64,000 bases of DNA from an uncultured Collinsella sp. (GTDB taxonomy: Bacteria; Actinomycetota; Coriobacteriia; Coriobacteriales; Coriobacteriaceae): NCBI GenBank assembly GCA_905198355.1, contig CAJKCG010000001.1, positions 52,347 through 116,346 on the forward strand, read 5' to 3'. Position numbers and translations under genes: made by a program. Positions within the stretch are counted from its first letter, which is position 1. The number at the start of each line of letters is the position of its first letter. The notes beneath the pieces are model-generated. The model worked only from the letters and a program-made list of their open reading frames with translations. It was not told the DNA's origin and ran no database searches. Of the stretch, positions 24,644 through 54,156 are shown piece after piece.

Positions 24644-24687
24644 AAAAACCACCACAAAGGGGACAGGCACCTTTGTGGTGGTTTTTT
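24644..24687. repeat. 40-bp hairpin repeat, copy 1 (AAAACCACCACAAAGG-loop-CCTTTGTGGTGGTTTT)
   Basis: Perfect 16-bp stem; loop GGACAGGCA. Confidence 0.8.
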
Positions 24688-25352: not shown

Positions 25353-25394
25353 AAAACCACCACAAAGGGGACAGGCACCTTTGTGGTGGTTTTT
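25353..25394. repeat. 40-bp hairpin repeat, copy 2
   Basis: Identical stem; same loop orientation as copy 1. Confidence 0.8.
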
Positions 25395-28226: not shown

Positions 28227-28555
28227 TGAAGAAGCGTCCCCGTCAACCGGCACAACAGGAACGTCCCCAAGTGCCGAATTCCCGAGCGCCGGATGACGCC
28301 CTTCGCCACGAAAGCGGCCCATCTACTACGTTTCGCCCGCATGGCCCAACCAGATGCCATAAATAAAGAAAACCGCAGGCGTTCTACCTGCGGTTTTCTT
28401 TTTGCAATTCTTTGCACGGTCACCGATAGCCTATTAAAAGTAGTAGATGGGCCGTTTTCGTGGCGACCAGCTCGGACATAAGCGCGGCGGGGCAAAGTTA
28501 CCCTGGTAATTTCGCCCCACGTGCATTGCAGATCGAAGGCGCCCGGCGTCGAGGC

Positions 28556-31864: not shown

Positions 31865-31937
31865 TGGAGACGAAGGGAGTCGAACCCTCGGCCTCTGCCA
31901 TGCGACGGCAGCGCTCTCCCAACTGAGCTACGTCCCC
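31865..31937 (-). tRNA. tRNA-Ala (anticodon CGC)
   Basis: G3:U70 identity pair; anticodon loop GTCGCAT; D- and T-arms fold. Confidence 0.8.
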
Positions 31938-31990: not shown

Positions 31991-32156
31991 AGTCTTTTTG
32001 GGGCGGGGCTATTTTAGCTACTTTCAGATGCCGGCTCGACCCCTGCCGAGAGTAGTCTTTTTGGGACGGGGCTTTTTAGCTGCCCCTGCCGTTAATCGGC
32101 CAAAACGTGTGCGCTCTCTGCTGGGGCTAAAAAAGCCCCGTCCCAAAAAGACTACT
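31991..32156. repeat. three copies of a ~30-bp unit AGTCTTTTTGGGRCGGGGCTWTTTTAGC (two direct, one inverted)
   Basis: Copies at 31991-32019, 32051-32081 and 32126-32156 (inverted). The latter two form a near-perfect 31-bp inverted repeat. Confidence 0.7.
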
Positions 32157-32164
32157 CAGCAGAG

Positions 32165-36144: not shown

Positions 36145-36320
36145 CGAAGTACACCGTTGAATCGCACAGAGGGGAGGGATGCGAATCAAACTCAACAGGG
36201 CAGGCTTTTTCATCGCCTATTGCCTGCTCCGTTGCTGAAACCAATATAGTTCACCGTGGTTTACTTTGTAGCGGCAATAAGCGCCGCCATAGCTTCTCCA
36301 TAAGTTAGCTCTGGTAAACT

Positions 36321-36361
36321 AAAACCACCACAAAGAGGACAGGCACCTTTGTGGTGGTTTT
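36321..36361. repeat. 40-bp hairpin repeat, copy 3 (variant GAGGACAGGCA loop)
   Basis: Same ACCACCACAAAG stem. Confidence 0.8.
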
Positions 36362-36377
36362 AGCCACGGCAGAGCTG

Positions 36378-36698: not shown

Positions 36699-36727
36699 CG
36701 TCCACTCCTTTCAACCGGAACCAGCAT

Positions 36728-36768
36728 AAACCACCACAAAGGTGCCTGTCCCCTTTGTGGTGGTTTTT
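36728..36768. repeat. 40-bp hairpin repeat, copy 4 (loop inverted: GGTGCCTGTCCCC)
   Basis: Same stem; the loop is the reverse complement of copies 1, 2 and 5. Confidence 0.8.
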
Positions 36769-36778
36769 GGCAGGTCGG

Positions 36779-38305: not shown

Positions 38306-38347
38306 AAAAACCACCACAAAGGGGACAGGCACCTTTGTGGTGGTTTT
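38306..38347. repeat. 40-bp hairpin repeat, copy 5
   Basis: Same stem and loop as copy 1. Confidence 0.8.
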
Positions 38348-41344: not shown

Positions 41345-42928
41345 TTGAGCATCACGCCCCTCGATAGCATTCGCCGCGCCATCGCCCGCCGCAACGGCAT
41401 CTCCAACCCCGCTGCATCGAAAGACGGCGCCGCGAAGGCCCAGGGCGGACGCATCGAGAATGGCCTGTTCCCCGCCTCCCACACGGCCGAAGAGCTCGCG
41501 CGCATCCAGGAGCTGAGCCAGCGCAACGCCGGCGGCCCCGACAGCAGCCAGGCCACGCGCCGTCGCCGGCGCGAACGCGATCGGGAGCCCGGCCCCGTCC
41601 GCCGCATGGTCAACGCTTGGTGGAACCGTCTGCTCGGTGCCGTCTACGGCGGCGGCTTCTCCATGCAGGAAGCGGAATACGAGGAGCACGCCACCAGTCG
41701 CGACTATCTTTGGAACACCCTCGGCACCGCCGTGTGGGGCTTGGCATTTCCGCTGCTCACCATCGTGTCTACGCAGCTCGTGGGCGCCGAAGAAGCAGGC
41801 AAATTCTCCATCGCCTTTGTCACCGGCACGCTCATCATGATCGCGTGCAACTACGGCGTGCGCAATTTCCAGGTCTCGGACATCGACGAAAAGACGTCGT
41901 TCGCCTCCTACCAGCTCAACCGCTGGCTTTGCGGAGCGCTCGCCCTAGGCTGCGGCCTCATGTACAGCAGCGCCCGCGGCTATGACACGCAGATGGCGAC
42001 GATCGGCCTGGGCGTCTACCTGTATAAGGTCATCGACGGCGTCGCCGACGTGTACGAAGGCCGCCTGCAGCAGGCCGACAAGCTCTACCTGGCTGGCATG
42101 AGCCAAACGCTACGCTCCGTCGGCGTCATCGCGGTCTTCAGCGTGGCGCTGTTCCTCACGCGCAGCATGCCCATCGCGGCCATGGCCATGGGTGTCACCG
42201 CCATCGCCTCGCTCGTGCTGGTCACCGCGCCGCTCGCCCTGCTCGAGACCGAAAAATCGCGCCGTGTGAGCCTGCGCGAGGTCGGCCACCTGTTTGTCCA
42301 GTGCGCTCCGCTCTTTGGTGCACTGTTCCTGTTCAACCTCATCGAGAGCATGCCCAAGTTTGTAATGGAAGGCGCGCTGGCCTACAAATACCAGCTGTAC
42401 TTTAATGCCCTGTTCTTTCCGGCGCAGGCTATTTTGCTGAGCATCGGATTTGTCTATAAACCGCAGCTTTTGCATCTGTCGAGCATTTGGGCGAACCCGC
42501 GCAAACGCCGCCGTTTTGACTTGATTATTGTTGCCGTTATGGCGCTGATCGTGGCCATCACCGGCGTGTGCGCCGCATTTATGGCAGGTCCCGGTATTCC
42601 CCTCATGAGCTTTATGTACGGTCTCAGCTTTGAGCGCTACCGTACGCTGGCGCTGCTAATGGTCGTCGCCGGCGGCGTCACCGCGGCCATCGATTTTATC
42701 TACGCCATCATCACGGTGCTGCGCCACGCTGGAGACGTCACCAAGATCTACCTGATCTGCTTCGCCGTAAGCGTGGTGCTGCCGGTGATCCTGATTAAGC
42801 TGCTGGGTCTGATGGGCGCCGTGGTGAGCTACCTAGCCATCATGGCCCTTCTGCTGGTGCTGCTGATAATCGAGTACGCCCACATCCGCCAACGCATCGA
42901 ACGCGACCGCAACCCATACGGCGCCTAA
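41345..42928 (+). CDS. MOP-superfamily polysaccharide/lipid-II flippase-like membrane protein
   Basis: 527 aa; ~12 TM helices after a basic N-terminal tail; TTG start with AAAGGA RBS. Confidence 0.55.
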   Translation: MSITPLDSIRRAIARRNGISNPAASKDGAAKAQGGRIENGLFPASHTAEELARIQELSQRNAGGPDSSQATRRRRRERDREPGPVRRMVNAWWNRLLGAVYGGGFSMQEAEYEEHATSRDYLWNTLGTAVWGLAFPLLTIVSTQLVGAEEAGKFSIAFVTGTLIMIACNYGVRNFQVSDIDEKTSFASYQLNRWLCGALALGCGLMYSSARGYDTQMATIGLGVYLYKVIDGVADVYEGRLQQADKLYLAGMSQTLRSVGVIAVFSVALFLTRSMPIAAMAMGVTAIASLVLVTAPLALLETEKSRRVSLREVGHLFVQCAPLFGALFLFNLIESMPKFVMEGALAYKYQLYFNALFFPAQAILLSIGFVYKPQLLHLSSIWANPRKRRRFDLIIVAVMALIVAITGVCAAFMAGPGIPLMSFMYGLSFERYRTLALLMVVAGGVTAAIDFIYAIITVLRHAGDVTKIYLICFAVSVVLPVILIKLLGLMGAVVSYLAIMALLLVLLIIEYAHIRQRIERDRNPYGA

Positions 42929-42960
42929 TTAGCTGCCCCGGTCATCGGAATTTGCGATGG

Positions 42961-43135
42961 AATCGCCCCGGCTGGGGTCTCGTTGAAGACAATATGCATC
43001 ACGTAAAACTAAGTGAGTAGATTTTTACCGAATCCCCGACCATACCGACAGAGCACTAGTCTGTGACCTGCGGTTTTATTGAGGCAAATATGTTGGGTGC
43101 TCGGCATTTCCAAAAAAGCCTACTCACTTAGCCAG
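42961..43135. repeat. 175-bp MITE-like element, copy 1 (13-bp terminal inverted repeats CTAAGTGAGTAG / CTACTCACTTAG)
   Basis: TIRs at 43009-43020 and 43120-43131. Direct copy at 45980-46158. Confidence 0.7.
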
Positions 43136-43242
43136 CGGGCAGCCAAATGATTTTAAAATCCCCGTCCCAGAGAAATCAATTAGCGGGCAGAAGGGCAAAA
43201 GTGGTCAAAAACCCTTCCCAAATTAGCTACCCCTTGCACCGA

Positions 43243-44082
43243 TTATTCGCCCGGGTTGATGTTCGCGTAGAACTCCGCCCCGTCGTCCAGGCGCAGGATG
43301 CCCACGCGACCGAACTCGGAGCCGGTGGCGGCGGCGCAGTCGATATCGATGCGATCGGGCACACCGGCGGTATCCTCGCCGCCCAGGCGCACAATCTGCC
43401 CGCGACCCGACTCCTCATCGAGCCCCGCCAGGCCGCCCACCTCGCAATAACGCCCGAGCGACACCGTGGGCGTGTGGCCGCTCACCACGACCGGGCCCTT
43501 GCCGTCGGCAGAAAGCAACCCTGTCGGCGCATCCCAGTAGCCGTGACGAATCCACAGCAAGTCATCGGACGACTGCACGGCAAGCATTTGCTGCAGCAAC
43601 TCGGCATCGACATCGACCGCTCCCCTGCCGTTGCCGCAATCGACACCGTGCTCAAGCAAAAAAGCGCGAGCAGCCTCGGTCTGGATGCCGGCATGCACCA
43701 GCAAATACGGGCGCTCGGCAGTCTGGGCCACTGCATAGAGCGGCAGCGCGGCCATCCATCGCACGAGCTCCTCGTATGCCTCAAATTCCATGTCGTTGAG
43801 CTGCTGACGGGTAGTCCAACCGCCGTTGATATCCCAGGTCTCGGCATCGAGCGGATCCTGGCCAATGATGGCATCGAGCATGATCTGCTCGTGATTGCCC
43901 TTGAGCACGCGGGCGTTGGGCAGCGAGCGCACGAGCTTAATAACGCCGACCGGATCGGGCCCGCGATCGATCATGTCGCCCAGCACGTACAGCGTGTCGT
44001 CGGAAGTCAACGAGATCTTAGACAGGGCCTCGTCAAGCGCACGCATGTGCCCGTGAGCATCAGATGTCACATAGATCGCCAT
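43243..44082 (-). CDS. metallophosphoesterase (PPP-family Ser/Thr phosphatase, ApaH/PrpE-like)
   Basis: 279 aa; DAHG...GDMIDRGPD...GNHE motifs. Confidence 0.75.
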   Translation of the reverse strand: MAIYVTSDAHGHMRALDEALSKISLTSDDTLYVLGDMIDRGPDPVGVIKLVRSLPNARVLKGNHEQIMLDAIIGQDPLDAETWDINGGWTTRQQLNDMEFEAYEELVRWMAALPLYAVAQTAERPYLLVHAGIQTEAARAFLLEHGVDCGNGRGAVDVDAELLQQMLAVQSSDDLLWIRHGYWDAPTGLLSADGKGPVVVSGHTPTVSLGRYCEVGGLAGLDEESGRGQIVRLGGEDTAGVPDRIDIDCAAATGSEFGRVGILRLDDGAEFYANINPGE

Positions 44083-44335
44083 GGTACGCCTCTCCTTGCA
44101 TTGCGGCCGAAGCCAGGCGCCGCAACTAAAACTTCAAGTTGAACTTAAACGTTACCCATTGTACTCCGTTGCAATAAAGCTGGAAAGGGTTTCCGAGCAG
44201 AGGCAAAGACGGAAGCCGTCTATGACGATATCGCGCACGCCCGCAATCCAACCCCATAAACCCACCATCTTTGGGTACAAATAACCGCAGACAACTGATC
44301 GTGCCACGCCAACCACCTAGGAGCGGACACTCCCT

Positions 44336-45937
44336 ATGAACCAGATTCTTCTCTTTATCGGCCTCGTCATTATTCTGTGCCTGACCATCAAACCCGTCGG
44401 CAAAAAGCTCCCCTTCCCCACCCTGCTCATCTTTATCGCGCTCGGCATGCTGTTGGGCGTCAACGGCCCGGCACATATCGACTTTAGCGACTATACGCTC
44501 ACCGAAACCGTCTGCAGTACGGCGCTGCTGTTCATCATGTTCTACGGCGGCTTTAACACCAATATCGACCGCGCCAAGCCCGTCGCTGCGCCGGCGGTGC
44601 TGCTGAGCACGCTCGGCGTCGTCATCACCGCAGGCATCACCGGCGTGTTCGCCCACTTCGCGCTGGGGTTCGACTGGATCGGCGGCCTGCTGCTGGGCTC
44701 GGTCGTGGCATCCACCGACGCGGCCAGCGTCTTTAGTGTTCTACGCGAGCACAACCTGTCGCTGAGGGGCGGGACTGACTCGCTGCTCGAGGTCGAATCG
44801 GGCTCCAACGACCCCGTCGCCTACATGCTCACCGCCGTGCTCGCGACCCTTGCGGCCGGCGGCGACATCAACATTCCCGCACTGCTGGCTAAGCAGATTA
44901 TCCTGGGTGTGGGCCTGGGCCTTGCCATCGGCTGGGCGGCGGGCCGCCTGATTGAACGCGCGCACGCAACTGCCGAAGGCGCGCAGACCATCTTTTTGTT
45001 CGCCGTGGCCATCATCGCCTACGCGCTGCCGAGCTACCTGGGCGGCAACGGCTTTTTGGCTGTATACCTGGCCGGCATTGTGCTGGGCGCCAGTGACATC
45101 ACCGGCAAAGTCGAGATGGCGCACTTCTTTGACACCCTCACCGAGATGGCCGAGATGACGATCTTCTTCTTGCTCGGCCTGCTCGTGACGCCCGCGCGCT
45201 TGCCGCAGATGCTGCTGCCGGGCCTGGCGCTCATGGCGTTTATGCTCTTTGCGAGCCGCCCCATCGCCGTCGGCGTGCTCCTGGCGCCCTTTAAGACGAA
45301 CCCCCGCCAGGTCGCGCTCGTAAGCTGGGCGGGCCTGCGCGGAGCAGCTTCGGTCGTCTTTAGTCTCTTTGCCGTGGTGGCCGGCGTTCCCGGCGGACAC
45401 GACCTATTTGACCTGGTGTTCGTGATTGCCGTGTCGAGCATTGTGGTACAGGGCTCGCTGCTGCCGGCGGTGGCGAAGAAGCTCGATATGATCGATGAGA
45501 CCGGCGACGTGCGCCGCACCTTTAACGACTACCGCGACGAGGACGGCATGTCGTTTGTAAAGCTCAAGGTGGGCGCTGGACATCCGTTTGCCGGACGCTC
45601 GCTCGCCGATATTGGCAGCGCGACGGACATGCTCGTGGTCCTGGTGCTGCGCGATGGCGCGCACCCGGTGCTGCCCAACGGCGATACCGTAATCCAGGAA
45701 GGCGATCTGCTGGTGATGGCCGCCCCAACGTTCGAAGAGCGTGCCGAGGTTACGCTGCGCGAAGTCACCGTAACGCCCCACGGTCGTCTGGCAGGCCAGC
45801 GCCTGCGCGACGTGCCGCAGGGCAAGCACCCCTTTATCGTCGTGATGCTCAAGCGCGAAGGCCAGACGATAATCCCCGATGGCAACACCCTCATATACGC
45901 CGGCGACGAAGCCGTCATCGCCACGCTGGCGTCGTAG
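44336..45937 (+). CDS. K+/H+ (CPA1, NhaP2-type) antiporter with C-terminal TrkA-C domains
   Basis: 533 aa; N-terminal 12-13 TM Na_H exchanger domain plus two RCK_C-like domains. Confidence 0.8.
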   Translation: MNQILLFIGLVIILCLTIKPVGKKLPFPTLLIFIALGMLLGVNGPAHIDFSDYTLTETVCSTALLFIMFYGGFNTNIDRAKPVAAPAVLLSTLGVVITAGITGVFAHFALGFDWIGGLLLGSVVASTDAASVFSVLREHNLSLRGGTDSLLEVESGSNDPVAYMLTAVLATLAAGGDINIPALLAKQIILGVGLGLAIGWAAGRLIERAHATAEGAQTIFLFAVAIIAYALPSYLGGNGFLAVYLAGIVLGASDITGKVEMAHFFDTLTEMAEMTIFFLLGLLVTPARLPQMLLPGLALMAFMLFASRPIAVGVLLAPFKTNPRQVALVSWAGLRGAASVVFSLFAVVAGVPGGHDLFDLVFVIAVSSIVVQGSLLPAVAKKLDMIDETGDVRRTFNDYRDEDGMSFVKLKVGAGHPFAGRSLADIGSATDMLVVLVLRDGAHPVLPNGDTVIQEGDLLVMAAPTFEERAEVTLREVTVTPHGRLAGQRLRDVPQGKHPFIVVMLKREGQTIIPDGNTLIYAGDEAVIATLAS

Positions 45938-45979
45938 CGGCCAGGGACAGCCGTCCCGTATTGGCTACATTTGAGCATC

Positions 45980-46158
45980 AATCGCCCCGACAGGGGTCTC
46001 GTTGAGGACAGTTAGTGTCTCCCAAGACTAAGTGAGTAGGCTTTTGTCGAATCGCCGACCACGTCATCAAAGCACAAGTCTGTGACCTGCAGGTTTGTTG
46101 AAGAAAAGACTTCGGGTGCTCAGCATTTCCAAAAAAGCCTACTCACTTAGCCGGCGGG
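45980..46158. repeat. 175-bp MITE-like element, copy 2
   Basis: Same orientation as copy 1. Together they bracket the phosphatase/antiporter pair. Confidence 0.7.
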
Positions 46159-46393
46159 TGGCCATAATAGAACCGCCGCGACGTCGTTGGACTCCGTTGC
46201 GGCGGTTTATCATGCATTTTCGCACAGCCGTGGGCACAAACACCCCGTCGCCCCATATGACAAAGGGGCAGTCCCTTTGTCACATTAAATAGAACTTCAG
46301 CAAGAAGCTGAGGAAAAAGAAGACCGAATGAGCCACCGCTCGCATCGCAACCATGGTATAAATGGATTGCGCTCCTTTATGGAGGGCAGTCAA

Positions 46394-46420
46394 GGGCCGG
46401 GGGATCCCCCCGGCATTTTT
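46394..46420 (+). terminator. terminator-like hairpin unit 1 (GCCGGGGGATCCCCCCGGC followed by ATTTTTG)
   Basis: Seen directly; a similar unit lies ~125 bp downstream. Confidence 0.5.
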
Positions 46421-46519
46421 GTTTTTAGGTCAACAGGAAATCGAGCGAAATGTCTCGTGTAGACCCGACATGCGGTTTCTGTTATAAAGATGTCGGTACC
46501 CTCGAATAGAGGGGCCTCC

Positions 46520-46548
46520 AAGAGCCGGGGTCTTACCTCCGGCATTTT
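46520..46548 (+). terminator. terminator-like hairpin unit 2 (GCCGGGGTCTTACCTCCGGC followed by ATTTTTT)
   Basis: Flanking sequence resembles unit 1 (GAGGGGC..CAAG.GCCGGGG). Confidence 0.5.
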
Positions 46549-46571
46549 TTATGCAATACGAGGCCTGCCCA

Positions 46572-47246
46572 TTAGACGACAGCCTTCTTTCTTATTTCTT
46601 TTAGTAAGCCTTTTTTAAACGCAGTACTACCACCAAAAAACTTCTGGTCAGTATTAGTCTGCTTATTCGCCTGATATTTCAGACTCGTGAACTCAATGGT
46701 ACAGATATAGTCCACAGCCTGAGCCAAATAGTAATCCGATGAAGTTGTTGGCTTATAGATAACTGCATTTTTAGCCAAAGCGTAATCGATTGCCTTGTGA
46801 AGCGCGCTCGAAACCGAACCCTGTCCTCCGTCGTAGTAAATCTTCACAGCATCAAACTGCTGAAACCAACTCAAATTATCGAATATGAAATCGATGATTT
46901 CACGCCGCATCGCATCAGCGATCTGTTTGAGAGTTCGATACCGATGCGTCTTGAATACAAACACCTTGTACGAGATGGGCAAATGTCGAAACATAACTCG
47001 AAATAGTGAAAACAGCCTTTTTCTCTCACTGATGTCCAAGTCCTTGAACTGATCTTTTCCATTCATGAGAGGAGAAGCATGGAACGGAAGGAGCGGCAAT
47101 CCGCTATCGGCTACCGCCCTTTCATATTTCTCTATTCCCTCAGCGATGGGAATATTTTGTTCATGAAAAACAAAGGCCACAAGATAGTATCTTTCACGAA
47201 GATCATCGCTTCCAGATTCATCAATAAAGATACTCAGCTCTCGCAT
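46572..47246 (-). CDS. DUF3800-family protein
   Basis: 224 aa from ATG with AAGGA RBS; N-terminal LSIFIDESGS motif. The gene and its flanks are markedly AT-rich versus the genome. Confidence 0.6.
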   Translation of the reverse strand: MRELSIFIDESGSDDLRERYYLVAFVFHEQNIPIAEGIEKYERAVADSGLPLLPFHASPLMNGKDQFKDLDISERKRLFSLFRVMFRHLPISYKVFVFKTHRYRTLKQIADAMRREIIDFIFDNLSWFQQFDAVKIYYDGGQGSVSSALHKAIDYALAKNAVIYKPTTSSDYYLAQAVDYICTIEFTSLKYQANKQTNTDQKFFGGSTAFKKGLLKEIRKKAVV

Positions 47247-47261
47247 GGGCAATCCTTAATA

Positions 47262-47290
47262 AAAAAGCCGGGGAAAACGTCCCCGGCACT
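47262..47290 (-). terminator. rho-independent terminator closing the BREX operon
   Basis: Minus strand GCCGGGGACGTTTTCCCCGGC followed by TTTTTTATTA. Confidence 0.6.
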
Positions 47291-47401
47291 TGGAAGCCCT
47301 CTCTTAAGAGATGACCACCTAATTTATACCATGAAGTTGGACGTATATTCAAGCATGAGTATAAAATACAAACATATGTTCGTCAATAGCAAAGGTGGCC
47401 A

Positions 47402-47599
47402 TCATTCAGCGTCGTCATCGGCGGCAAAGTCGCGGAGGTCGAGGCCTTCGCGTTCGGCTCGGGCTAGGAGCTCTTGAGGTGACTCGTCCTCGATATCCAT
47501 CACGTCGAGCATAGCGGCCGGAAAACCCACGCCTGCCGCACTCCCCGCGCGGTCGAGCAGGCTCTCGCGCAACTGGTCTACATCAACTTCGATTTTCAT
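47402..47599 (-). CDS. small acidic protein (65 aa), BREX-linked, unknown function
   Basis: GC-rich ORF with BREX-like codon usage, 28 bp downstream of the 450-aa gene. Confidence 0.4.
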   Translation of the reverse strand: MKIEVDVDQLRESLLDRAGSAAGVGFPAAMLDVMDIEDESPQELLARAEREGLDLRDFAADDDAE

Positions 47600-47626
47600 G
47601 GTGAAACCTCCTACCGGGCCAGGGCC

Positions 47627-48979
47627 TTACTCACCAGCACTGAGCTCATCCACGGCAGCAACAAAAGCAGCCACCTGGTTGTCGTCCATCTGCGCGGCCA
47701 GGCGCCCCACGGGCTCGTCGTAGGCAAACTGTACTTTATCGATAAAGCAATCCCAGGCACGCTCATCCACACGCACGGCGGCCTCGCAATACTGGCTGAG
47801 CTTTTTGAGTCCATACCAAAACGCATTCACATGGCGCGCAGGATCCTCATCCAGCACCCCATCGTAGCGCCGACCGTTAAACTCACGCATGCGCGCCACG
47901 GCAACCTCGAGCGAGTCGCCGCCGTCGGCCGAAGCCTCGTCCACAAGCTCGGGAATCGCAACCTCGCGCCGGACATTGTGCCTGGTAGCACCGTCGTACT
48001 CGCCCACCAACACGTCTTCGTCAAACCGATCATCGTAGTCGAAATAACTGCTGCCCCGGCAAATCCCATGCAGCGAACCGGTGCCAAAGGCACGGAACAA
48101 CCCGCCATCGGCAACAACGCACCTATAAGTCTCAAACGACTTCTTAACCTGAGCGAGCAACTCGGAAAGCTCTCCGGCATCGCACCCCGTCTCGCACGCG
48201 ACGCAAGCAGACTTCGGCAACGATACCGGCTCCACCGTGCTCCCTGCAACGCGGGCAGCGCGCTCGGCCCGATACGCTTGGGCTGCCAAGCGCGCTCGCT
48301 GCGCAGCACCGCGCACATTAGTAAGCTCGCGCTCCAGCGCCACATCGCCAGCCACATCGCTCGCAAACGCGTCAGCACCCTGCGGGCCGGTCGCACTCAG
48401 CTCGGACTCAAACGTCGCCGTGATCATGCCGGCAAGGTCCGTTGCGTCGGCGGCACAACGCAGCTGCTCCAACTGCGTGCACAGCAGATCGGCATCCAGG
48501 GGCACCGCATCCACAACGCACACGTCACTCAGACGCACCGCGCCCTGCAGCACCAAAGCCCCCGCAGCATCGTACGCCGCACGAACCCTGTCCGCCGTAT
48601 TGGCACGCAGCTTTACCTCGATAAACGCAAGCGTCTGCTCCAAGCGGGCCAACAGCTCGGCCTTGTCCTCCATACGCAAAAAGGCAGCGTAGCGCCGCTC
48701 CATCTGCAACGGGCCCACAACGCCCATCTGCTTGCGAGCCCGCGCAAGCGACTCGGCTTCAACGCGGCGCACATACCCGTCAACGGCCTGCACGGCAGAC
48801 TCACGCGCAGCACGCTCGGCAGACTCGACGCCCTCGATCACGGCCAGCAGCTCGCGGGAGCGCGCCTTGCGCACCAACTCCCCGCGGTCGTACTGCTCAA
48901 GCGCCGCCTGACGCTTGGCTACCGACTCAAAGCCAAACAGCTCGTCGAGCAGCTCGCCAACAGAACGTTCTTCCGCCAT
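47627..48979 (-). CDS. 450-aa protein of unknown function, immediately downstream of brxL
   Basis: Long GC-rich ORF, co-oriented, 94 bp after brxL. No motif I can assign; CVACETGC and CRGSSYFDYDD segments. Confidence 0.5.
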   Translation of the reverse strand: MAEERSVGELLDELFGFESVAKRQAALEQYDRGELVRKARSRELLAVIEGVESAERAARESAVQAVDGYVRRVEAESLARARKQMGVVGPLQMERRYAAFLRMEDKAELLARLEQTLAFIEVKLRANTADRVRAAYDAAGALVLQGAVRLSDVCVVDAVPLDADLLCTQLEQLRCAADATDLAGMITATFESELSATGPQGADAFASDVAGDVALERELTNVRGAAQRARLAAQAYRAERAARVAGSTVEPVSLPKSACVACETGCDAGELSELLAQVKKSFETYRCVVADGGLFRAFGTGSLHGICRGSSYFDYDDRFDEDVLVGEYDGATRHNVRREVAIPELVDEASADGGDSLEVAVARMREFNGRRYDGVLDEDPARHVNAFWYGLKKLSQYCEAAVRVDERAWDCFIDKVQFAYDEPVGRLAAQMDDNQVAAFVAAVDELSAGE

Positions 48980-49072
48980 GGCAAGGCCTCCTCACGCGCA
49001 GCGCGCCACCATGCTCGCGGGCTCATGTGCGCATCAAACGCCTCGCGCACGCAAGCCCGCACGCTCGCATCC

Positions 49073-51445
49073 CTATAGATCCAACGCCTTCTTCGCGGCA
49101 TCGACCGGGTCGCCATCCATGTAGAACACCGGGCTCAACCCCGAGATAATCTCGGAGGAAACGCTCTGCAGGCCCGCGATGGCGCTCAGCGGCAATATCA
49201 CGCGCTTGGCGCCGGCGTTTTTGGCCACGCGCATGATGTCCTCGAGCCCGCGGATCTCATCCATAGATCCCGACATGCGCAAGATTCCCGGAACCGCCAG
49301 CGCGGACATCACCGGGCGGTTGCACGCCGCGGAGCACAGGCCCACAAACTCGGCAAGCGAGACTTCTTCGGACAGACCCTTGCTCTGCAGGTCGTTATAG
49401 AACAGCAGGTAGTCCTTTGAACCAATGTGCATGCCCGGCGCCACACGGTTCGCCAGGTTCACAAAGTTGTCGAACGCGGCCTCCAGCGTATCGCGCACCG
49501 GCTTGTTAAAGGCAACGCCCTCGTGCTTAAACTTGCACTCGCCGGCGACAGCCTTGTTCTCCAGCTTGTACACGGCAACCTCGCCGCCCTGCGATCTGCC
49601 CACGCCAAACACATGGCCGGACAACAGCGGCCCGTCGGGAATCAGCGTGTCCTCGCTCTGCTCGGGCACGCGCACCACGTGCACGTCCTGCGGGTTGTCG
49701 GCATCCATATAGCCCAGGTTAACGTCGATAAACTCAACGCCCGCCATAATCTTGAGCTGCTCCTTTACGCGGCGACGGCCCTCGATGGCGTAGTCCAGCA
49801 ACCAGCGCACGTCGTCCTTGTCCATGGCCTCGTCGGGGAACAGCAGCTTGGCCAGGCCGCTAAAGGTCTTGCGCACGGCGATCTCGTCACGCTTGTTAAA
49901 GTCGCTGTTAAAGCGGAAATACCGGTCGATATGGTGCGTAAAGTCCTTGCGGCGCATCTCCTTGCAAAACTCCGACAGGCAGTCGGTAATCAGGCCGTAA
50001 TGCCCGGTCAGCAGGCTCGAGCGCATCTTGGGAATCTCCCAGCCCGGCAGGTAGTAATGGATGCGGTCGAAGAAGGCCGAATCGTTGTTAAACTCCGGCG
50101 GAAACGGATCAAACAGGTGCGTGGTCTTAAGGACATTTTGCACGGTGTCGTTGATGTTGCCCTCAAAGACCATGGAGGCATCGGCGTTAATCTGGTCGCG
50201 GCCGCGCGCGTAGCTGCCACTCGCCATGTAGTCCTTCATGATCTGCACGGCGTTGGTGTCCTTAAAGCGCATGCCGGCGACCTCGTCGAACGTCACGCAG
50301 TCCCAGTGGCCCACCAAGCCCACGCGATCGGCGCGCATGGAGTTCATACGGCCGAACAGGTTGGCCGTGGTGGTCTGGCCGCCCGAAAGCAAGATGGCAT
50401 AGGGCGAGACCTCTTTGTAGATATGGCTCTTGCCGGTGCCACGGGGACCCAACTCGCACAGATTGTAATTGCGCTCGATCAGCGGCACCATGCGCTCGAT
50501 AAAGTGCAGGCGCTCCTTCTCCGAAAGCTCGCTGGGCTCATAGCCGGCAGAGCGCAGCAGCATGTTGAGCCACTCGTCGCGCGAGAAATACTGGCGCTCG
50601 TCGATCATGGCCTCCAGGTCCAGGTTGGGCATCTGGATGGGCGTGAGCGACGCCACGCTAAACGGAGAGTCCTCGGGTCCGCGCTTTTTGCGTTTGGCCT
50701 TGGAACGGCGCGGCGCATCGTCGCCAAAGACCTCCATGCCAAACTCGTCTTCCTCTTCCATGGGATGACGATACTCGATGCTCATGATGCACCAAATGCC
50801 GCCCTGCAGAATCTTGGAGTAGTCGCGCACGTACTCGGCCGGCATCACAAACGGCTCAATGGTCAGATTGGCAAACGACGCCACGTAGATGTCTTTGTAT
50901 TCGTCGAGCTTGGCCGTCACCTTATCGATAATGGTAAAGCGACCCAGCTCGCGAATCTTGGACTTGATGCGCTCGGACTCGTCGGGACGCACGTAGTTAT
51001 CGGTGAGGATCTTGCGGATGCGCTCCAGGCCCTCTGCCACGGCATCCTCGTCATCGGTTGAGCAGTACATGCCCAGCAGGTACTCCAGCACAAAGGTGGG
51101 CACGTTGGCGCCACGCTTCATAAGGGCCGTAAGGTCCTTGCGCACGATCTTGCCGCCAAAGTGCTCGAGCAGCTTACCGTCCAGTCCATCCATGTCGTAA
51201 CCGTCATCCTCGGGAGCGTCGGCCACGGCCTGGGCATAGCCATCGGTCGAGGACTCGTCCTCGGCGGGCGCCGCAACCTCATCGGGCGCAGCGGCCGCCA
51301 CCGGCTCCGGAACAGGCGCGGCGGCCACGGCCTCCGGGGCAGGCACAGCCTCCACCGCAGGCACCGCGGCCTCCACCGGCGCACTCACATCAATCGAGGG
51401 AACTTCCCACAGATCGTCGTCATGGCTATCAAACATAGGGCACAC
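49073..51445 (-). CDS. brxL: BREX Lon-like protease BrxL
   Basis: 790 aa; central ATPase GPRGTGKSH Walker A; C-terminal Lon-protease-like domain. Confidence 0.8.
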   Translation of the reverse strand: MCPMFDSHDDDLWEVPSIDVSAPVEAAVPAVEAVPAPEAVAAAPVPEPVAAAAPDEVAAPAEDESSTDGYAQAVADAPEDDGYDMDGLDGKLLEHFGGKIVRKDLTALMKRGANVPTFVLEYLLGMYCSTDDEDAVAEGLERIRKILTDNYVRPDESERIKSKIRELGRFTIIDKVTAKLDEYKDIYVASFANLTIEPFVMPAEYVRDYSKILQGGIWCIMSIEYRHPMEEEDEFGMEVFGDDAPRRSKAKRKKRGPEDSPFSVASLTPIQMPNLDLEAMIDERQYFSRDEWLNMLLRSAGYEPSELSEKERLHFIERMVPLIERNYNLCELGPRGTGKSHIYKEVSPYAILLSGGQTTTANLFGRMNSMRADRVGLVGHWDCVTFDEVAGMRFKDTNAVQIMKDYMASGSYARGRDQINADASMVFEGNINDTVQNVLKTTHLFDPFPPEFNNDSAFFDRIHYYLPGWEIPKMRSSLLTGHYGLITDCLSEFCKEMRRKDFTHHIDRYFRFNSDFNKRDEIAVRKTFSGLAKLLFPDEAMDKDDVRWLLDYAIEGRRRVKEQLKIMAGVEFIDVNLGYMDADNPQDVHVVRVPEQSEDTLIPDGPLLSGHVFGVGRSQGGEVAVYKLENKAVAGECKFKHEGVAFNKPVRDTLEAAFDNFVNLANRVAPGMHIGSKDYLLFYNDLQSKGLSEEVSLAEFVGLCSAACNRPVMSALAVPGILRMSGSMDEIRGLEDIMRVAKNAGAKRVILPLSAIAGLQSVSSEIISGLSPVFYMDGDPVDAAKKALDL

Positions 51446-51447
51446 TC

Positions 51448-54156
51448 CTAAAAACCAAAGTCAGCAACAGGGGCAAACGAAACAGCGATGGTGTACGTCT
51501 CGCGCCAAACGATCTTGCCCGTCTCGCGCTCGCGGCAGACCAGATAGTACGGACCCTTGGCCGAGAATCCATCCGCTGCATGCAACGCAAACTTGGCATG
51601 CACCACGCGCTCCTGCGAGTTAACAGAAGTCTTGCTGGCATGCGCCTTGACCGTATCGCTCACCTCGTTGCCACTTGCATCGGTAAACACCAGCTCGTAC
51701 TCGCACGGCAAGACCTTACCTTGGGCAGGCTCTTCCTGGATCAAGTTGACCGAGAAGAGCGAGTTGGTCACTCGGCGTCCCTCGCTTAGCACGCGCAGCG
51801 TCGCCGCGCGCGTGTCGACAAAGTCCTTGGAACCCGAGCGCGCACGCCAAAAACCGATAACGGGCACGCAGAGCTCCTGCAGGCTCATGCCGCCGTGGAC
51901 GTAGTTGTTAGTGCCGCCGGGACGCTTGAAGTGCACGTTCTCGCGCGGGGCAAACCCCTCAAAACCGGCGCCCAAACGTCCCATGTTAACATTAACAAAC
52001 ACCCCGCATGCCTCTTCCGAAAGCTTGGCCACGGCCTCGTTGGGTACCACCAGATGACGCTTGCCGTGCATGACAGGAGCGTCAAGGAAGGGAAGGTCTG
52101 GCTTGCCGAGCATCTGGCACTCGCTGAGCTCCCGACGCGTGTAGATAAAGCCGTGGTCCGCCGTTATAACAACACGGGCGCCCGGGGCGTCGGTGCACAC
52201 GCGACGCGCCAACGCAGCAAGTTCCTCCACGGTGTCCGCACAGGCATCGAAGACGTCATCCTGCGTAGCGGCCTTCTCGCCCGTAGCATCGATCTTGTTG
52301 TGGTAGAGATAAACGAGCTTGGAGTCCTTGAGCAGCGCCTTGCGCTCGGTTCCCGCCATGTTGAGGTATGCGCTCGAGCGCAAAGCGCGGCCCGTAGACT
52401 CAACGTTGGCAAGCACGGCCTCGCGCTGCGGAGTCGTCGAAGTGGGCATGCCGTCAGCCAGCACGTACGTGCCATCCGCTGCAAGCCCAAGCGCCTGGTG
52501 CGGCAGCAGCGCGGGCATACCCACCTCGGTAATGGAGGGAAAGACCGCCTGCATGCTAGAGACCTTGACGTTGCCGCCGCGCTCGCGCTCGAGCAGCGCC
52601 GCAACGTCGCGGGCCACCTCATAGCGCAGCGCGTCGCTCACGATAACGACCGTCGTTTTGGTAGAGCCCACAAAGGTGGGCAGTACATGCCAGTAGAATT
52701 CATCCTGCCGTGCGGGACCCTCGATGTAGCCGCAATCGGCCCACTCCCCTTGCGCAGCGGTCGCCCAGCATGCATTAGCATCGGCCAAGAACCAGTTACT
52801 GTAAAGATTCTCCGCCCAGTCCACCACAGCTCGGGCAGGCTCCTCGAGCACATCGCACTCGACGGAACGCGCCCGCAGATACGCGGTGCACACATGGCGA
52901 TAGGCAGCGTCCATGGCATACCAATCGGACGTGTAGGCATCCCACACCTGCTGGGGCTGCGCCAGATGGAACCCGCCCGCATGCGCCTGCCTAAACGCAC
53001 ACATATCGGCCACAGCGACAAGCAGGTCAAAGTAGCTCTTGACACGGCGGTACCAGCTCAGGTCGCAGCGACGCGACGCAAAAGTGCGCGCGTCCTCAAC
53101 ACGGTCCGCACCCTGAGCAAACGAGCTGAACAGCTGCGAGAGCACGGCCTCATTGACGCACGGGAACACATCAAGCGAGGCTAGCACATCGATCGGCAGA
53201 GCCTCAAACCGCGCAAAGAGCCCGCGAGCATCCTCCACCAAACGGCAGATCTCAAATAAATCCTCGCTCGACGCCTGAGCATCAGCAGTCTGGTCCCACG
53301 TACGCACTGCCTCAAGGCAATAGGGTCCGTAGGCGGGAGCCACATAGCTTTCGAGTCCCTTGAGCGCTCCCTCGGGAAGCGCGGTGGATGACGCCGTGAT
53401 GAGCATATGGGATGCCAGCGCAAGCAGCGAATCACGCTCATACAGCGGCCCCTCAAACCCATAGCAACGTACAATGAAGGCAGAGAGGACATCGCGCACG
53501 CAGTACTTGTCCACCAACTCGGCCAGCGCTTCGGGGCCCTCGTGCAGCAGCGTGGTCATACAGCCGCGCAGCACAAACGCGGGGCGCGCGTCGCCAAGCT
53601 CTTTACCGCCAAAAATCACCGTAAGGGTGCCGAGTTCGATATCGGATGCGCCCGAGGCATGCGGAACACACGCGGCAAACTTAGCGCAACGGGTCTTGGC
53701 ATCAAAGAACGTCTTGTGCTCGCGCAGGCTCTCGCGCACGGCGTCGATATTCTCGATGCCCAGCTGATCGGCCAAAAGCGAAAGATAGTCAGCCTGGAAC
53801 TGATCTGCATACAGCTCAACATCGGCAAGCCAATCACCCTCAAGCCTGCCGCGCGGGCAACGGCGATACAGCAAGATATCGCTCGCAAGGTCATCGCGGT
53901 TGATGAGCTTCTTAACGGCAAACATGTGGCCCTCGCAGGCCTCAACAAAGCGCACTGGGCGCTCAAAGTCACCGTGAGCGGGCATAACGCCGTCATCGGC
54001 CCCCGCGCCGTCGAAACCCTCGGCAGCCAATCGCTCAAACTCAGGAGCAAACTCGCCGTCCGCATCGTGCCAAATCACCACACGGCGCAGCATACATGCG
54101 GGCAACGGCTGCAAAAAACGCAGCTTGAGCTGTTCTTCTACATCGATCTTGGGCAT
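51448..54156 (-). CDS. pglZ: BREX alkaline-phosphatase-superfamily protein PglZ
   Basis: 902 aa; TVVIVSDALRYE PglZ-domain signature. Confidence 0.8.
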   Translation of the reverse strand: MPKIDVEEQLKLRFLQPLPACMLRRVVIWHDADGEFAPEFERLAAEGFDGAGADDGVMPAHGDFERPVRFVEACEGHMFAVKKLINRDDLASDILLYRRCPRGRLEGDWLADVELYADQFQADYLSLLADQLGIENIDAVRESLREHKTFFDAKTRCAKFAACVPHASGASDIELGTLTVIFGGKELGDARPAFVLRGCMTTLLHEGPEALAELVDKYCVRDVLSAFIVRCYGFEGPLYERDSLLALASHMLITASSTALPEGALKGLESYVAPAYGPYCLEAVRTWDQTADAQASSEDLFEICRLVEDARGLFARFEALPIDVLASLDVFPCVNEAVLSQLFSSFAQGADRVEDARTFASRRCDLSWYRRVKSYFDLLVAVADMCAFRQAHAGGFHLAQPQQVWDAYTSDWYAMDAAYRHVCTAYLRARSVECDVLEEPARAVVDWAENLYSNWFLADANACWATAAQGEWADCGYIEGPARQDEFYWHVLPTFVGSTKTTVVIVSDALRYEVARDVAALLERERGGNVKVSSMQAVFPSITEVGMPALLPHQALGLAADGTYVLADGMPTSTTPQREAVLANVESTGRALRSSAYLNMAGTERKALLKDSKLVYLYHNKIDATGEKAATQDDVFDACADTVEELAALARRVCTDAPGARVVITADHGFIYTRRELSECQMLGKPDLPFLDAPVMHGKRHLVVPNEAVAKLSEEACGVFVNVNMGRLGAGFEGFAPRENVHFKRPGGTNNYVHGGMSLQELCVPVIGFWRARSGSKDFVDTRAATLRVLSEGRRVTNSLFSVNLIQEEPAQGKVLPCEYELVFTDASGNEVSDTVKAHASKTSVNSQERVVHAKFALHAADGFSAKGPYYLVCRERETGKIVWRETYTIAVSFAPVADFGF

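What the first reader, a model, noticed from the sequence alone, without database searches (positions are those of the whole stretch)
42961..46158. Two direct copies of a 175-bp TIR-bounded (MITE-like) element flank the phosphatase/NhaP2 antiporter pair
Copies at 42961-43135 and 45980-46158 share ~85% identity and are in the same orientation. Each has a core bounded by 13-bp terminal inverted repeats (CTAAGTGAGTAG...CTACTCACTTAG) next to A/T runs. Direct repeats bracketing 2.8 kb could mediate deletion or duplication of the ion-transport/phosphatase unit, or mark a mobilised cassette.
Basis: seen in the sequence. Interest (0 to 1): 0.55.

Follow-up and report, generated by a model that had tools for sequence, protein, structure and literature searches.

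The report
Conserved 123-nt hairpin repeat of Collinsella
The two repeats are real: they are two of at least seven fixed copies of an undescribed 123-base hairpin-forming repeat found in the gut bacterium Collinsella, which resembles a miniature transposon but sits still, is strongly conserved, and has not mobilised the genes between the two copies.

Summary
Observation confirmed. Copies at 42950-43145 and 45969-46164 are direct repeats (79% ungapped, 84% gapped). Each holds a 123-nt core (43009-43131, 46028-46150) bounded by CTAAGTGAGTAG / CTACTCACTTAG.

The window is Collinsella. The core recurs at 7 or more syntenic intergenic sites across more than 200 Collinsella loci. It is always 123-124 nt, with near-invariant 18-nt termini, a variable stem that keeps pairing through compensatory changes, and an asymmetric tip carrying ACCTGCGGTTTTA. 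The termini vary less than neighbouring genes and about 10-fold less than flanking spacer. Copies A and B show no gene conversion, so selection is acting.

Each terminus contains TAA, TGA and TAG, one per frame. Two upstream genes end on that TAG.

No Rfam match, no transposase partner and no clean empty site or target duplication were found. The halves are not REP stem-loops, and the ends do not fit the attC consensus.

The phosphatase/antiporter pair is present in every sampled locus that could show it, and no A/B deletion hybrids were seen. The copies themselves vary: A is present in 84% of loci, B in about 27%. B lies at the edge of a variable, BREX-bearing spacer.

Best reading: a sedentary, selected MITE/ERIC-like foldback repeat that probably acts as a stem-loop "stop-and-fold" module. 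It is not a composite transposon. Modest interest.

The parts
42961..43008 (+). Upstream module shared only by copies A and B. Contains the small GC hairpin CCCCGGCTGGGG and starts about 33 nt after the stop codon of the 527-aa membrane-protein ORF (41345-42928).
   Evidence: Alignment. Per-site consensus sequences show that this flank is shared only by sites S0 and S4.
43009..43131 (+). Copy A core (site S0): 123-nt foldback element.
   Evidence: Covariance model R1 scores it 138 bits, E = 1e-31. Present in 63 of 75 informative orthologous metagenome loci.
43009..43026 (+). Left 18-nt terminus of A (CTAAGTGAGTAGATTTTT). Carries TAA, TGA and TAG, one in each reading frame.
   Evidence: Nucleotide diversity 0.014, against 0.16-0.25 in the flanking spacer.
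43066..43078 (+). Apical conserved motif ACCTGCGGTTTTA of A, in the asymmetric tip of the hairpin.
   Evidence: nearly invariant across all sites.
43114..43131 (+). Right 18-nt terminus of A (AAAAAGCCTACTCACTTAG region). It is the reverse complement of the left terminus, so it gives three-frame stops on the minus strand.
   Evidence: diversity 0.022.
43132..43146 (+). Short downstream tail (CCAGCGGGCAGCCAA) shared by A and B only.
45980..46027 (+). Upstream module of copy B (hairpin CCCCGACAGGGG). Starts about 43 nt after the stop codon of the K+/H+ antiporter gene (44336-45937).
46028..46150 (+). Copy B core (site S4): 123 nt, with a perfect 18-bp terminal stem (46028-46045 paired with 46133-46150) and the apical motif ACCTGCAGGTTTG at 46085-46097.
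   Evidence: R1 scores it 131 bits. Present next to the antiporter gene in only 14 of 63 loci, displaced by an insert in 3, and absent in 46.
45946..46578 (.). A roughly 640-nt block that carries copy B. It is present in the window but absent from C. aerofaciens TSDC17.2-1.1, where the antiporter gene is followed almost directly by the region the two genomes share.
   Evidence: BLAST of L203 against the window, and the junction sequences; annotation.
43243..44082 (-). Bracketed gene 1: metallophosphoesterase. A host gene, not part of the element.
   Evidence: Pfam PF00149; RefSeq annotation of the orthologue.
44336..45937 (+). Bracketed gene 2: NhaP2-type K+/H+ antiporter (Na_H_Exchanger + TrkA_C). 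A host gene, not part of the element.
   Evidence: annotated 'potassium/proton antiporter'.

Best explanation
Copies A and B are two members (sites S0 and S4) of a small family of 123-nt foldback repeats seen so far only in Collinsella. The family has at least seven fixed intergenic sites.

Anatomy. Near-invariant 18-nt inverted termini (CTAAGTGAGTAGACTTTT ... AAAAGTCTACTCACTTAG). An imperfect stem of about 35 bp per arm whose middle differs between sites but stays paired. An asymmetric tip of about 50 nt carrying ACCTGCGGTTTTA.

Origin (inferred). A miniature non-autonomous inverted-repeat element. The ends read C-TA-[element]-TA-G, which fits insertion at CTAG with TA duplication, as for IS630/Tc1-mariner-type elements. 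That target preference is recalled from memory, not checked here.

Present state (shown). It is sedentary and under purifying selection. The same sites recur across many Collinsella species, length is fixed at 123-124 nt, and the termini are more conserved than adjacent coding DNA.

Likely action (inferred). It works as a long stem-loop at the ends of transcription units. Any ribosome entering from either side meets a stop codon in every frame at the base of the stem. The roughly 35-bp hairpin could then serve as a 3'-end barrier or processing site for the flanking mRNAs, as proposed for ERIC, Correia and REP elements.

The A/B pair is not a composite transposon. B is an old segmental copy of A, lying at the edge of a hypervariable spacer next to a BREX island.
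For: Family and host.
The 80 titles shown are Collinsella, 'Coriobacteriaceae bacterium' or uncultured-bacterium bins; none names another genus.
- The hits fall into only 6 flank clusters, with 39, 31, 26, 11, 11 and 6 members and one unassigned copy that looks like a misoriented S2. nhmmer added a seventh site, S6.
- A 900-kb piece of the C. aerofaciens chromosome holds only 2 places.

Constraint.
- 229 full-length copies: 217 are 123 nt and 12 are 124 nt.
- In an unbiased sample, diversity is 0.014-0.022 in the termini, 0.083 in the interior, 0.16-0.25 in the flanking spacer and 0.09-0.10 in neighbouring genes.
- There is no conversion between A and B.

Hairpin maintained.
- 85.7% of cells are paired, against 28-43% in slid controls. 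Eight pairs changed on both sides. Covariation is 0.106 against 0.070 in shuffles, 0 of 500 reaching it.
- Examples of compensatory types: A-T/C-G, A-T/T-A, C-G/G-C.

Stop codons.
- The terminus is one of about 1 in 10,000 12-mers with stops in all three frames. On the + strand of the window, the only such 12-mers are the left ends of A and B.
- The MocR-type regulator ORF and the 375-aa ORF upstream of S6 and S1 both end on the TAG of the terminus.

Position. All 7 sites are intergenic. At 5 of 7 the element lies just downstream of a gene and is co-oriented with it.

No described RNA family matches.
Against: - No clean 123-nt presence/absence allele was found, so no target-site duplication is demonstrated. 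Where A or B is missing, a larger and different block is missing or replaced.
- No autonomous element with the same ends was found in about 1.7 Mb of fetched DNA or in viral contigs.
- Copy number is very low for a MITE.
- Function at the RNA level is not shown. There are no convincing promoters or terminators. The local hairpin before the T-run is weak, -4 to -11 kcal/mol.
- There is no consistent strand signal. MFE favours different strands at different sites. G.T versus A.C mismatches are 250 versus 81 by cell, but 25 versus 25 by position type.
- At sites S2 and S3 the element is antisense to both neighbouring genes.
- Conservation of the exact sequence of the termini, not only of their pairing, points to an unidentified sequence-specific partner.
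Confidence: 0.5

Rival explanations
1. A family of paralogous genes for a structured small RNA. It would have a closing stem of about 35 bp and a conserved single-stranded apical motif, ACCUGCGGUUUUA, acting as seed or protein-binding site. It would act in trans.
For: - Fixed length at 7 paralogous sites.
- Compensatory changes in the stem.
- A conserved unpaired apical motif.
- Conservation equal to or above that of coding DNA.
- Two sites (S2, S3) are antisense to both neighbours, as an independent gene could be.
- At S2 the motif closes a terminator-like hairpin followed by TTTTAGTTTT.
Against: - No conserved promoter. Flanks differ completely between sites, and scans found none.
- No terminator after the 3' arm.
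- Both arms are conserved in exact sequence, which simple pairing does not require.
- No consistent strand preference.
- No Rfam match even at E <= 10.
- Upstream ORFs run into the element at S6 and S1.
Confidence: 0.15
2. A REPIN-like element: two inverted recognition ends with a hairpin-keeping spacer, replicated occasionally by a single-copy Y1 (RAYT/TIRYT-type) transposase encoded elsewhere in the Collinsella genome.
For: - The anatomy matches the published REPIN description: conserved inverted ends, a less conserved spacer that keeps the hairpin, fixed spacing classes and vertical persistence (PMC3337134).
- GTAG lies within each terminus, and also in other palindromic repeats of the window, for example GAGTAGTCTTTTTGGGACGGGGC at 32050.
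- Y1 transposases flanked by long TIRs, with moderately abundant TIR repeat families, are described (PMC3733652).
Against: - The halves do not fold on their own (-0.2 to -3.3 kcal/mol, no better than shuffles).
- GTAG is paired inside the stem, not an unpaired tag.
- About 7 copies, against tens to hundreds.
- No IS200-like ORF in the window or fetched loci.
- That survey lists GTAG repeats in Proteobacteria, Cyanobacteria, Chloroflexi and the PVC group; the word Actinobacteria does not occur in its text.
Confidence: 0.1
3. DNA-level protein-binding or recombination sites. Either attC-like or att-like sites marking gene cassettes or island borders, or paired operators for a DNA-binding protein.
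For: - Gene-plus-hairpin units lie in direct orientation: S6, then a 375-aa ORF, then S1 over 1.4 kb; and A, two genes, then B over 3 kb.
- ORF stops fall inside the element, as in many integron cassettes (integron comparison from memory).
- B lies at the border of a variable, BREX-bearing region.
- Truncated copies abut foreign DNA (L193/L037/L168 and L202).
- The exact sequence of the termini is conserved.
- The 18-mer occurs 50 nt from a P4-type integrase gene in one viral contig.
Against: - The ends (CTAAGTG / CACTTAG) do not fit the attC R-box consensus (RYYYAAC / GTTRRRY, recalled from memory). The perfect 18-bp terminal stem also lacks the unpaired spacer and extrahelical bases of attC.
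- No integrase was seen among the neighbours scanned at any site.
- The bracketed genes showed no presence/absence variation.
- The viral hit is within chance expectation (my rough estimate is 1-4 exact matches in that collection). It sits in a 50% GC element whose neighbouring ORF looks AlpA-like by eye, and its closest relative lacks the 18-mer.
- Truncations occur at different internal points.
Confidence: 0.1
4. One reading: an active MITE pair forming a composite unit that mobilises, deletes or duplicates the phosphatase/antiporter segment.
For: Two direct copies 3 kb apart, 79-84% identical. Both copies show presence/absence variation.
Against: - The segment is in the same context in all loci examined, with no deletion hybrids.
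- A and B diverged before the sampled strains split and do not exchange sequence.
- The shared similarity extends beyond the inverted repeats.
- 85% identity over 123-196 nt is a poor substrate for homologous recombination (general knowledge).
Confidence: 0.03

Closest known systems
ERIC/IRU elements of enterobacteria and Correia (CREE/NEMIS) elements of Neisseria: bacterial MITE-like imperfect palindromes of about 100-155 bp (properties recalled from memory)
   Same: - Size (123 nt), terminal inverted repeats and a long imperfect hairpin.
- Strictly intergenic, often just downstream of genes.
- Several subfamilies with a conserved length.
- Ends compatible with a TA duplication (C-TA...TA-G).
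   Different: - About 7 copies rather than tens to hundreds.
- Positions fixed across a genus.
- Termini more conserved than coding DNA.
- Three-frame stop codons in each terminus.
- No TSD or empty site shown, and no parent IS known.
- Host is an actinobacterium (Coriobacteriia).
REPINs (REP doublets forming hairpins) and their RAYT transposases (PMC3337134, PMC3116915)
   Same: - Two highly conserved ends in inverted orientation.
- A spacer that diverges but keeps the hairpin.
- Discrete length classes and long vertical persistence.
- GTAG present in the end sequence.
   Different: - Each half is not a stem-loop, and GTAG is base-paired rather than an unpaired tag.
- Copy number is far lower.
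- No RAYT found in the DNA available.
- The phylum is not among those listed for GTAG REPs (PMC3733652).
Integron attC sites and CALIN clusters (properties recalled from memory)
   Same: - Imperfect hairpin sites of 57-141 nt with conserved ends and a variable middle.
- They follow ORFs in direct orientation, and stop codons can lie inside the site.
- Two sites lie within 4 kb of each other.
   Different: - No R''/R' consensus.
- No unpaired central spacer or extrahelical bases.
- No IntI.
- No cassette variability.
- Other copies are singletons scattered in housekeeping contexts.
Other palindromic repeats of the same genome (window 21676-21825, 28303-28466, 31991-32157)
   Same: - Foldback elements of about 110-165 nt with arms of 27-31 nt.
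- Two of them carry the same central ACCTGCGGTTTT motif.
- One has the related end GAGTAGTCTTTTT.
- The covariance model gives weak hits (E about 0.002 and 0.014).
   Different: - The terminal sequences differ.
- The 28.3-kb element has a perfect bidirectional terminator at its tip, which the A/B family has largely lost.

Membership tests
Bacterial MITE (non-autonomous DDE-transposon derivative) | Terminal inverted repeats bounding a short non-coding unit | tested here: met
   The 12-nt exact inverted termini occur 4 times in the window against 0.07 expected. Termini are 18 nt across the family. The unit is 123 nt with stop codons at both ends.
Bacterial MITE (non-autonomous DDE-transposon derivative) | Multiple dispersed copies in one genome | tested here: met
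   At least 7 distinct syntenic sites. Copy number is low: 2 places in a 900-kb chromosome piece and 2 in this 64-kb window.
Bacterial MITE (non-autonomous DDE-transposon derivative) | Target-site duplication, and precise empty sites in relatives | tested here: inconclusive
   There are no direct repeats outside the termini at any site. TA...TA inside C-TA/TA-G would fit IS630-type insertion. However, alleles lacking A or B differ by larger, unrelated blocks. S6 and S1 were occupied in every locus seen.
Bacterial MITE (non-autonomous DDE-transposon derivative) | A cognate autonomous element with the same ends | tested here: inconclusive
   No solitary or widely spaced termini in about 1.7 Mb of loci. 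Viral contigs gave one truncated S1 copy and one match that is probably chance.
REP / REPIN-RAYT | Each end is itself a short imperfect stem-loop tagged by an unpaired GTAG | tested here: not met
   The 39-nt arms fold at -0.2 to -3.3 kcal/mol, no better than shuffles. GTAG (positions 9-12) pairs with CTAC of the other arm.
REP / REPIN-RAYT | Inverted conserved ends with a spacer that keeps hairpin complementarity | tested here: met
   85.7% of cells paired, and 8 pairs with changes on both sides.
REP / REPIN-RAYT | A Y1 (RAYT) transposase gene flanked by the repeats | tested here: inconclusive
The gene flanked by S6 and S1 is a 375-aa PF18741-like ORF, not a Y1 transposase. No whole genome was searched.
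Integron attC | R''/R' boxes (RYYYAAC / GTTRRRY), unpaired central spacer and extrahelical bases; consensus recalled from memory | tested here: not met
   The ends read CTAAGTG / CACTTAG, and the terminal 18 bp are perfectly paired without bulges. Checked by inspection only; no attC model was available.
Integron attC | Integron integrase nearby, and cassette presence/absence variation | tested here: not met
   The neighbours scanned are housekeeping genes or regulators. The bracketed genes were found in the same context in all loci examined.
Described RNA families (Rfam 15, including Collinsella-1) | A covariance-model match | tested here: not met
   Only three tRNAs reach gathering score in the window. 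Nothing overlaps the elements at E <= 10. Four other loci that carry the element gave no match.
Intrinsic (Rho-independent) terminator | A GC-rich hairpin immediately followed by a T-run | tested here: not met
   The consensus scan found none in either copy. The hairpin preceding the TTTT of the apical motif is weak, -4 to -11 kcal/mol, and is best at site S2.

The most novel reading that the evidence does not exclude
The element is not a relic. It is a domesticated, sequence-specific hairpin module: every frame on both strands is closed by a stop codon at the foot of a roughly 35-bp stem, and an unidentified Collinsella protein or RNA reads the invariant 18-bp terminus and the apical ACCUGCGGUUUUA. 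Such a module would define mRNA 3' ends or insulate neighbouring transcription units, or would yield a small family of processed structured RNAs. That would be a new kind of conserved 3'-end or regulatory RNA element in a major gut actinobacterium.
Probability: 0.2. Interest if true: 0.6.

Novelty: new member of a known kind. Interest (0 to 1): 0.36.

Why it matters
Collinsella is an abundant human-gut genus whose non-coding genome is almost unstudied. This work defines an undescribed repeat family, with a covariance model, seven sites and its anatomy.

The family is unusual for a MITE-like element in three ways. It is low in copy number, it sits at fixed sites across the genus, and it is more conserved than the genes beside it. 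That is the signature expected of a co-opted mobile element.

If it acts as a "stop-and-fold" 3'-end module or as an sRNA, it offers a handle on post-transcriptional control in Coriobacteriia.

It also corrects a tempting misreading. Direct repeats that bracket genes are not evidence of a mobile cassette here.

The spacers beside both copies are hotspots for small palindromic inserts and for a BREX island, which is useful for strain typing and for pangenome work.

Tried and rejected
- **Tandem duplication of paralogous genes with their 3' UTRs.** Rejected: the two upstream ORFs are unrelated.
- **Known RNA family, including Collinsella-1.** Rejected.
- **Internal intrinsic terminator.** The ACCTGCGGTTTT motif is half of a perfect terminator in a different element (28303-28466). 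In the A/B family the partner strand has decayed, and no terminator was called.
- **Strand of a putative RNA, from G.U versus A.C asymmetry and from MFE.** No consistent answer.
- **Gene conversion as the cause of conserved termini.** Rejected for A and B.
- **Phage attachment site.** A viral contig carries the 18-mer 50 nt from a P4-type integrase gene. However, the match is within my rough chance expectation (1-4 hits). The contig is 50% GC, the ORF next to the integrase looks AlpA-like by eye, and the nearest relative lacks the 18-mer. Kept only as a note.
- **The gene flanked by S6 and S1 as a candidate mobilising enzyme.** It is a 375-aa ORF with a weak PF18741 endonuclease-like hit, and all 120 listed homologues are close Collinsella-type proteins. 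No link to mobility was found.
- **Empty-site search.**
  - Eighty loci anchored on the phosphatase gene gave presence/absence alleles, but never a clean 123-nt indel.
  - Loci anchored on the 375-aa ORF were all occupied.
- **Y1 transposase search by tblastn in the fetched DNA.** Negative.
- **Full census of the 900-kb C. aerofaciens record.** Abandoned after one 50-kb chunk as too costly. A BLAST with all seven site sequences had already shown only 2 places in that record.


Full report
**1. Observation**

The repeat finder reports one 196-nt direct repeat, 42950-43145 versus 45969-46164, at 79% ungapped identity. A gapped alignment gives 84%.

CTAAGTGAGTAG and its reverse complement occur exactly four times in the 64-kb window, at 43009, 43120, 46028 and 46139. 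Chance would give 0.07. The complementarity extends to 18 nt (perfect in B) and imperfectly to 34-35 nt.

Both cores fold much better than shuffled sequence.

Both copies lie 30-45 nt downstream of the stop codon of a + strand ORF:
- a 527-aa membrane protein (41345-42928);
- an NhaP2-type K+/H+ antiporter (44336-45937).

These two ORFs are unrelated to each other. A metallophosphoesterase gene (43243-44082, minus strand) lies between the copies.

**2. Not a private pair: a family in Collinsella**

The 80 titles shown are Collinsella, "Coriobacteriaceae bacterium" or uncultured-bacterium bins from gut samples. The window itself is 91-94% identical to C. aerofaciens TSDC17.2-1.1.

Clustering the flanks showed only six genomic contexts, with 39, 31, 26, 11, 11 and 6 members. 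One copy was left unassigned and looks like a misoriented S2. The family with perfect termini is therefore essentially exhausted. nhmmer added a seventh site, S6, whose right end reads CACTTGCC.

| Site | Context | Orientation |
|---|---|---|
| S0 (copy A) | Between the membrane-protein ORF and the phosphatase gene | Convergent spacer |
| S4 (copy B) | After the antiporter gene | Sense to upstream gene |
| S6 | After a MocR-type GntR/aminotransferase gene | Sense to upstream gene |
| S1 | 1.4 kb further on, after a 375-aa PF18741-like ORF; convergent with rubrerythrin | Sense to upstream gene |
| S2 | Between a Methyltransf_4 gene and a DEAD/DUF3516 helicase gene | Antisense to both |
| S3 | Between a HAD hydrolase gene and a YitT gene | Antisense to both |
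| S5 | After a GntR/UTRA regulator gene | Sense to upstream gene |

A concatenated query of all seven site sequences finds only two places in a 900-kb C. aerofaciens chromosome piece. Copy number is therefore single digits per genome.

**3. Anatomy**

Only the 123-nt core is shared by all sites.

Of 229 full-length copies, 217 are 123 nt and 12 are 124 nt. In fixed coordinates:

| Region | Positions | Notes |
|---|---|---|
| Outer stem | 1-18 with 106-123 | Nearly invariant |
| Mid stem | 19-25 with 98-104 | Offset by one base; sequence differs between sites |
| Inner stem | 28-36 with 88-96 | CGAxCAC / GTGCTCGG |
| Apical region | 37-87 | Asymmetric; nearly invariant ACCTGCGGTTTTA at 58-70 |

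On a 47-sequence alignment:
- 85.7% of cells are paired, against 28-43% when the partners are slid.
- Eight pairs carry changes on both sides.
- The covariation score is 0.106, against 0.070 in shuffles (0 of 500 reach it).

RNAalifold alone recovered only the invariant parts.

**4. Evidence for selection**

I used an unbiased sample of 80 metagenome loci anchored on the phosphatase gene. Per-site nucleotide diversity:

| Region | Diversity |
|---|---|
| Left and right termini | 0.014 and 0.022 |
| Element interior | 0.083 |
| Flanking spacer | 0.16-0.25 |
| Adjacent coding DNA | 0.09-0.10 |

A and B differ by 19.0 positions within a genome and by 18.8 between genomes. Homogenisation between these two copies therefore does not explain the conservation, and purifying selection is the simplest reading. 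Conservation of the exact terminal sequence, not only of pairing, implies a sequence-specific partner that I could not identify.

**5. Stop codons**

CTAAGTGAGTAG reads C-TAA-G-TGA-G-TAG, which gives one stop codon in each frame. Because the other end is its reverse complement, the same is true for anything entering from the other side on the other strand.

Only about 1 in 10,000 12-mers of the window have this property. On the + strand, the only ones are the left ends of A and B.

At S6 and S1 the upstream ORFs terminate on the TAG of the terminus, so the proteins end in ...LSE. This is what an inserted element does to a gene's 3' end. It is also what a module that must stop ribosomes before a hairpin would need.

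**6. What it is not**

- **A described RNA family.** No match at gathering score, and none at E <= 10.
- **A classical terminator**.
- **A REP or REPIN in the strict sense.** The arms do not fold alone, and GTAG is paired (definitions in PMC3337134 and PMC3733652).
- **An attC site.** By inspection the end consensus is wrong and the terminal stem is perfectly paired. No integrase is nearby, and there is no cassette variability.

No strand of transcription could be inferred.

**7. Mobility**

I could not demonstrate it.

*Copy A.* It is present in 63, truncated in 1 and absent in 11 of 75 informative loci. The A-less alleles carry one of the following:
- a 25-nt spacer;
- a single CCCAAATTAGCTACCCC motif;
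- an 80-nt perfect palindrome of a different repeat;
- an unrelated filler of about 190 nt.

*Copy B.* It is adjacent to the antiporter gene in 14 loci, displaced by an insert in 3, and absent in 46 of 63. Compared with C. aerofaciens TSDC17.2-1.1, the window has a roughly 640-nt extra block (45946-46578) that contains B plus other hairpins. In that strain the annotated BREX genes brxL and pglZ follow a few kb downstream, and the window matches that region.

*Other checks.* No full-length element, solitary terminus or Y1 transposase was seen in the fetched DNA. The ends read C-TA...TA-G, which would fit a CTAG target with TA duplication. That is only a consistency, and the IS630 target preference is from my memory.

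**8. The bracketed genes**

Among the genome loci there is no hybrid joining the A-upstream flank to the B-downstream flank. Wherever the locus was long enough, the phosphatase gene and the antiporter gene were found side by side in the window's arrangement. The phosphatase-anchored sample cannot, by construction, report loss of the phosphatase itself.

The "mobilised cassette" reading is therefore not supported. B is an old segmental paralogue of A that sits in a hypervariable spacer.

**9. Verdict**

This is a real and previously undescribed family of foldback inverted-repeat elements in Collinsella. It is low in copy number and sedentary.

- **Closest in kind:** ERIC/Correia-type MITEs and REPINs.
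- **Membership:** it fails the REP test, and its MITE status is unproven because no TSD and no partner element were found.
- **Most likely role (confidence about 0.5):** a co-opted stem-loop with three-frame stops at transcript ends.
- **Rivals still open:** an sRNA family, a RAYT-type replicator, or a DNA-level binding or recombination site.
- **Interest:** modest. It would rise if transcript mapping shows a defined RNA or processing role.

Noticed in passing
window 21676-21825: A different foldback element of about 150 nt. Its 27-nt arms (AAACTATGGCGGTTTACTACGATGAAT / reverse complement) are 96% complementary. Its centre carries the same ...GCGCAAGGCATCTACCTGCGGTTTTAGTT motif. Model R1 gives a weak hit (21.9 bits, E about 0.002), so it may be a distant relative with covarying ends.
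   Followed up: partly
window 28303-28466: A 164-nt foldback element with 31-nt arms that are 94% complementary. Its tip is a perfect bidirectional terminator, AAAACCGCAGG-CGTTCT-ACCTGCGGTTTTCTTTTT. This suggests the ACCTGCGGTTTT motif of the A/B family is a decayed terminator half.
   Followed up: partly
window 31991-32157 (next to the tRNA at 31865-31937): Nested inverted repeats with the arm GAGTAGTCTTTTTGGGACGGGGCTTTTT (28 nt, 100% complementary). The first 13 nt resemble the A/B terminus GAGTAGACTTTTT.
   Followed up: no
window 24644-24686, 25353-25393, 36319-36363, 36725-36769, 38307-38347: Five copies of one terminator-like hairpin, AAAACCACCACAAAGG-N9-CCTTTGTGGTGGTTTT. This is a repeated terminator or REP-like family.
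   Followed up: no
window 42924-42939 and 43218-43233; L180, L129, L198: The motif CCAAATTAGCTACCCC flanks copy A as a direct repeat. In L180 the same motif forms an 80-nt perfect palindrome (GGGTAGCTAATTTGGGACGGGGCTTTTTTGACTACCCT...) in place of copy A. It also sits at the junctions of the variable DNA downstream of the antiporter gene. The spacer between the phosphatase and membrane-protein genes ranges from about 25 nt to about 315 nt among close relatives.
   Followed up: partly
window 46350-46425 and 46470-46550: Two tandem units of about 70 nt, each with TATAAA, a hairpin, and then a GC-rich terminator (GCCGGGGGATCCCCCCGGCATTTTT and GCCGGGGTCTTACCTCCGGCATTTTTT). In L031 and L048 a similar unit sits directly upstream of an ORF carrying a DUF3800-like FIDESG motif (judged by eye). 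This could be a leader, an attenuator or a small RNA.
   Followed up: no
window 46572-51748: A low-GC stretch (39-45% GC at 46500-47400) with a DUF3800 ORF at 46572-47252 (minus strand). It is followed by DNA 91.6% identical to the region of C. aerofaciens TSDC17.2-1.1 annotated as brxL and pglZ (BREX type 1). The site downstream of the antiporter gene holds different cargo in different Collinsella; many have a SerC-like gene there instead, judged from the N-terminal translation only.
   Followed up: partly
L193:5950-6015, L037:164-229, L168: The S0 copy is truncated inside the apical motif (...AAAACCG|) and joined to foreign DNA. On its reverse strand that DNA appears, by eye, to encode an XRE-like HTH protein. 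It is probably the end of an inserted mobile element.
   Followed up: no
L202:11551-11645 (IMG/VR contig) and L144: The S1 copy is truncated at ...GGCCTGG| by DNA that begins GGTAGCGCACAGAGATGTGGTGTAAGAG. A similar terminus interrupts the S0 spacer in L144. This is likely an insertion-sequence end.
   Followed up: no
L201:5329-5346 (IMGVR_UViG_3300036421_000021): An exact CTAAGTGAGTAGACTTTT lies 50 nt downstream of a P4-type tyrosine integrase gene and is followed by repeated CATTTAAGACT motifs. It looks like an attP site. However, the contig is 50% GC, the neighbouring ORF looks AlpA-like by eye, the match is within my rough chance expectation, and it is not shared by the nearest relative (L205).
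   Followed up: yes
L034:2877-4010 and orthologues (P0001-P0120): A 375-aa ORF with a weak C-terminal PF18741/DUF559-like endonuclease domain. All 120 listed homologues are close Collinsella-type proteins. In the loci examined it is bracketed by element copies S6 and S1 in direct orientation. Its function is unknown.
   Followed up: partly
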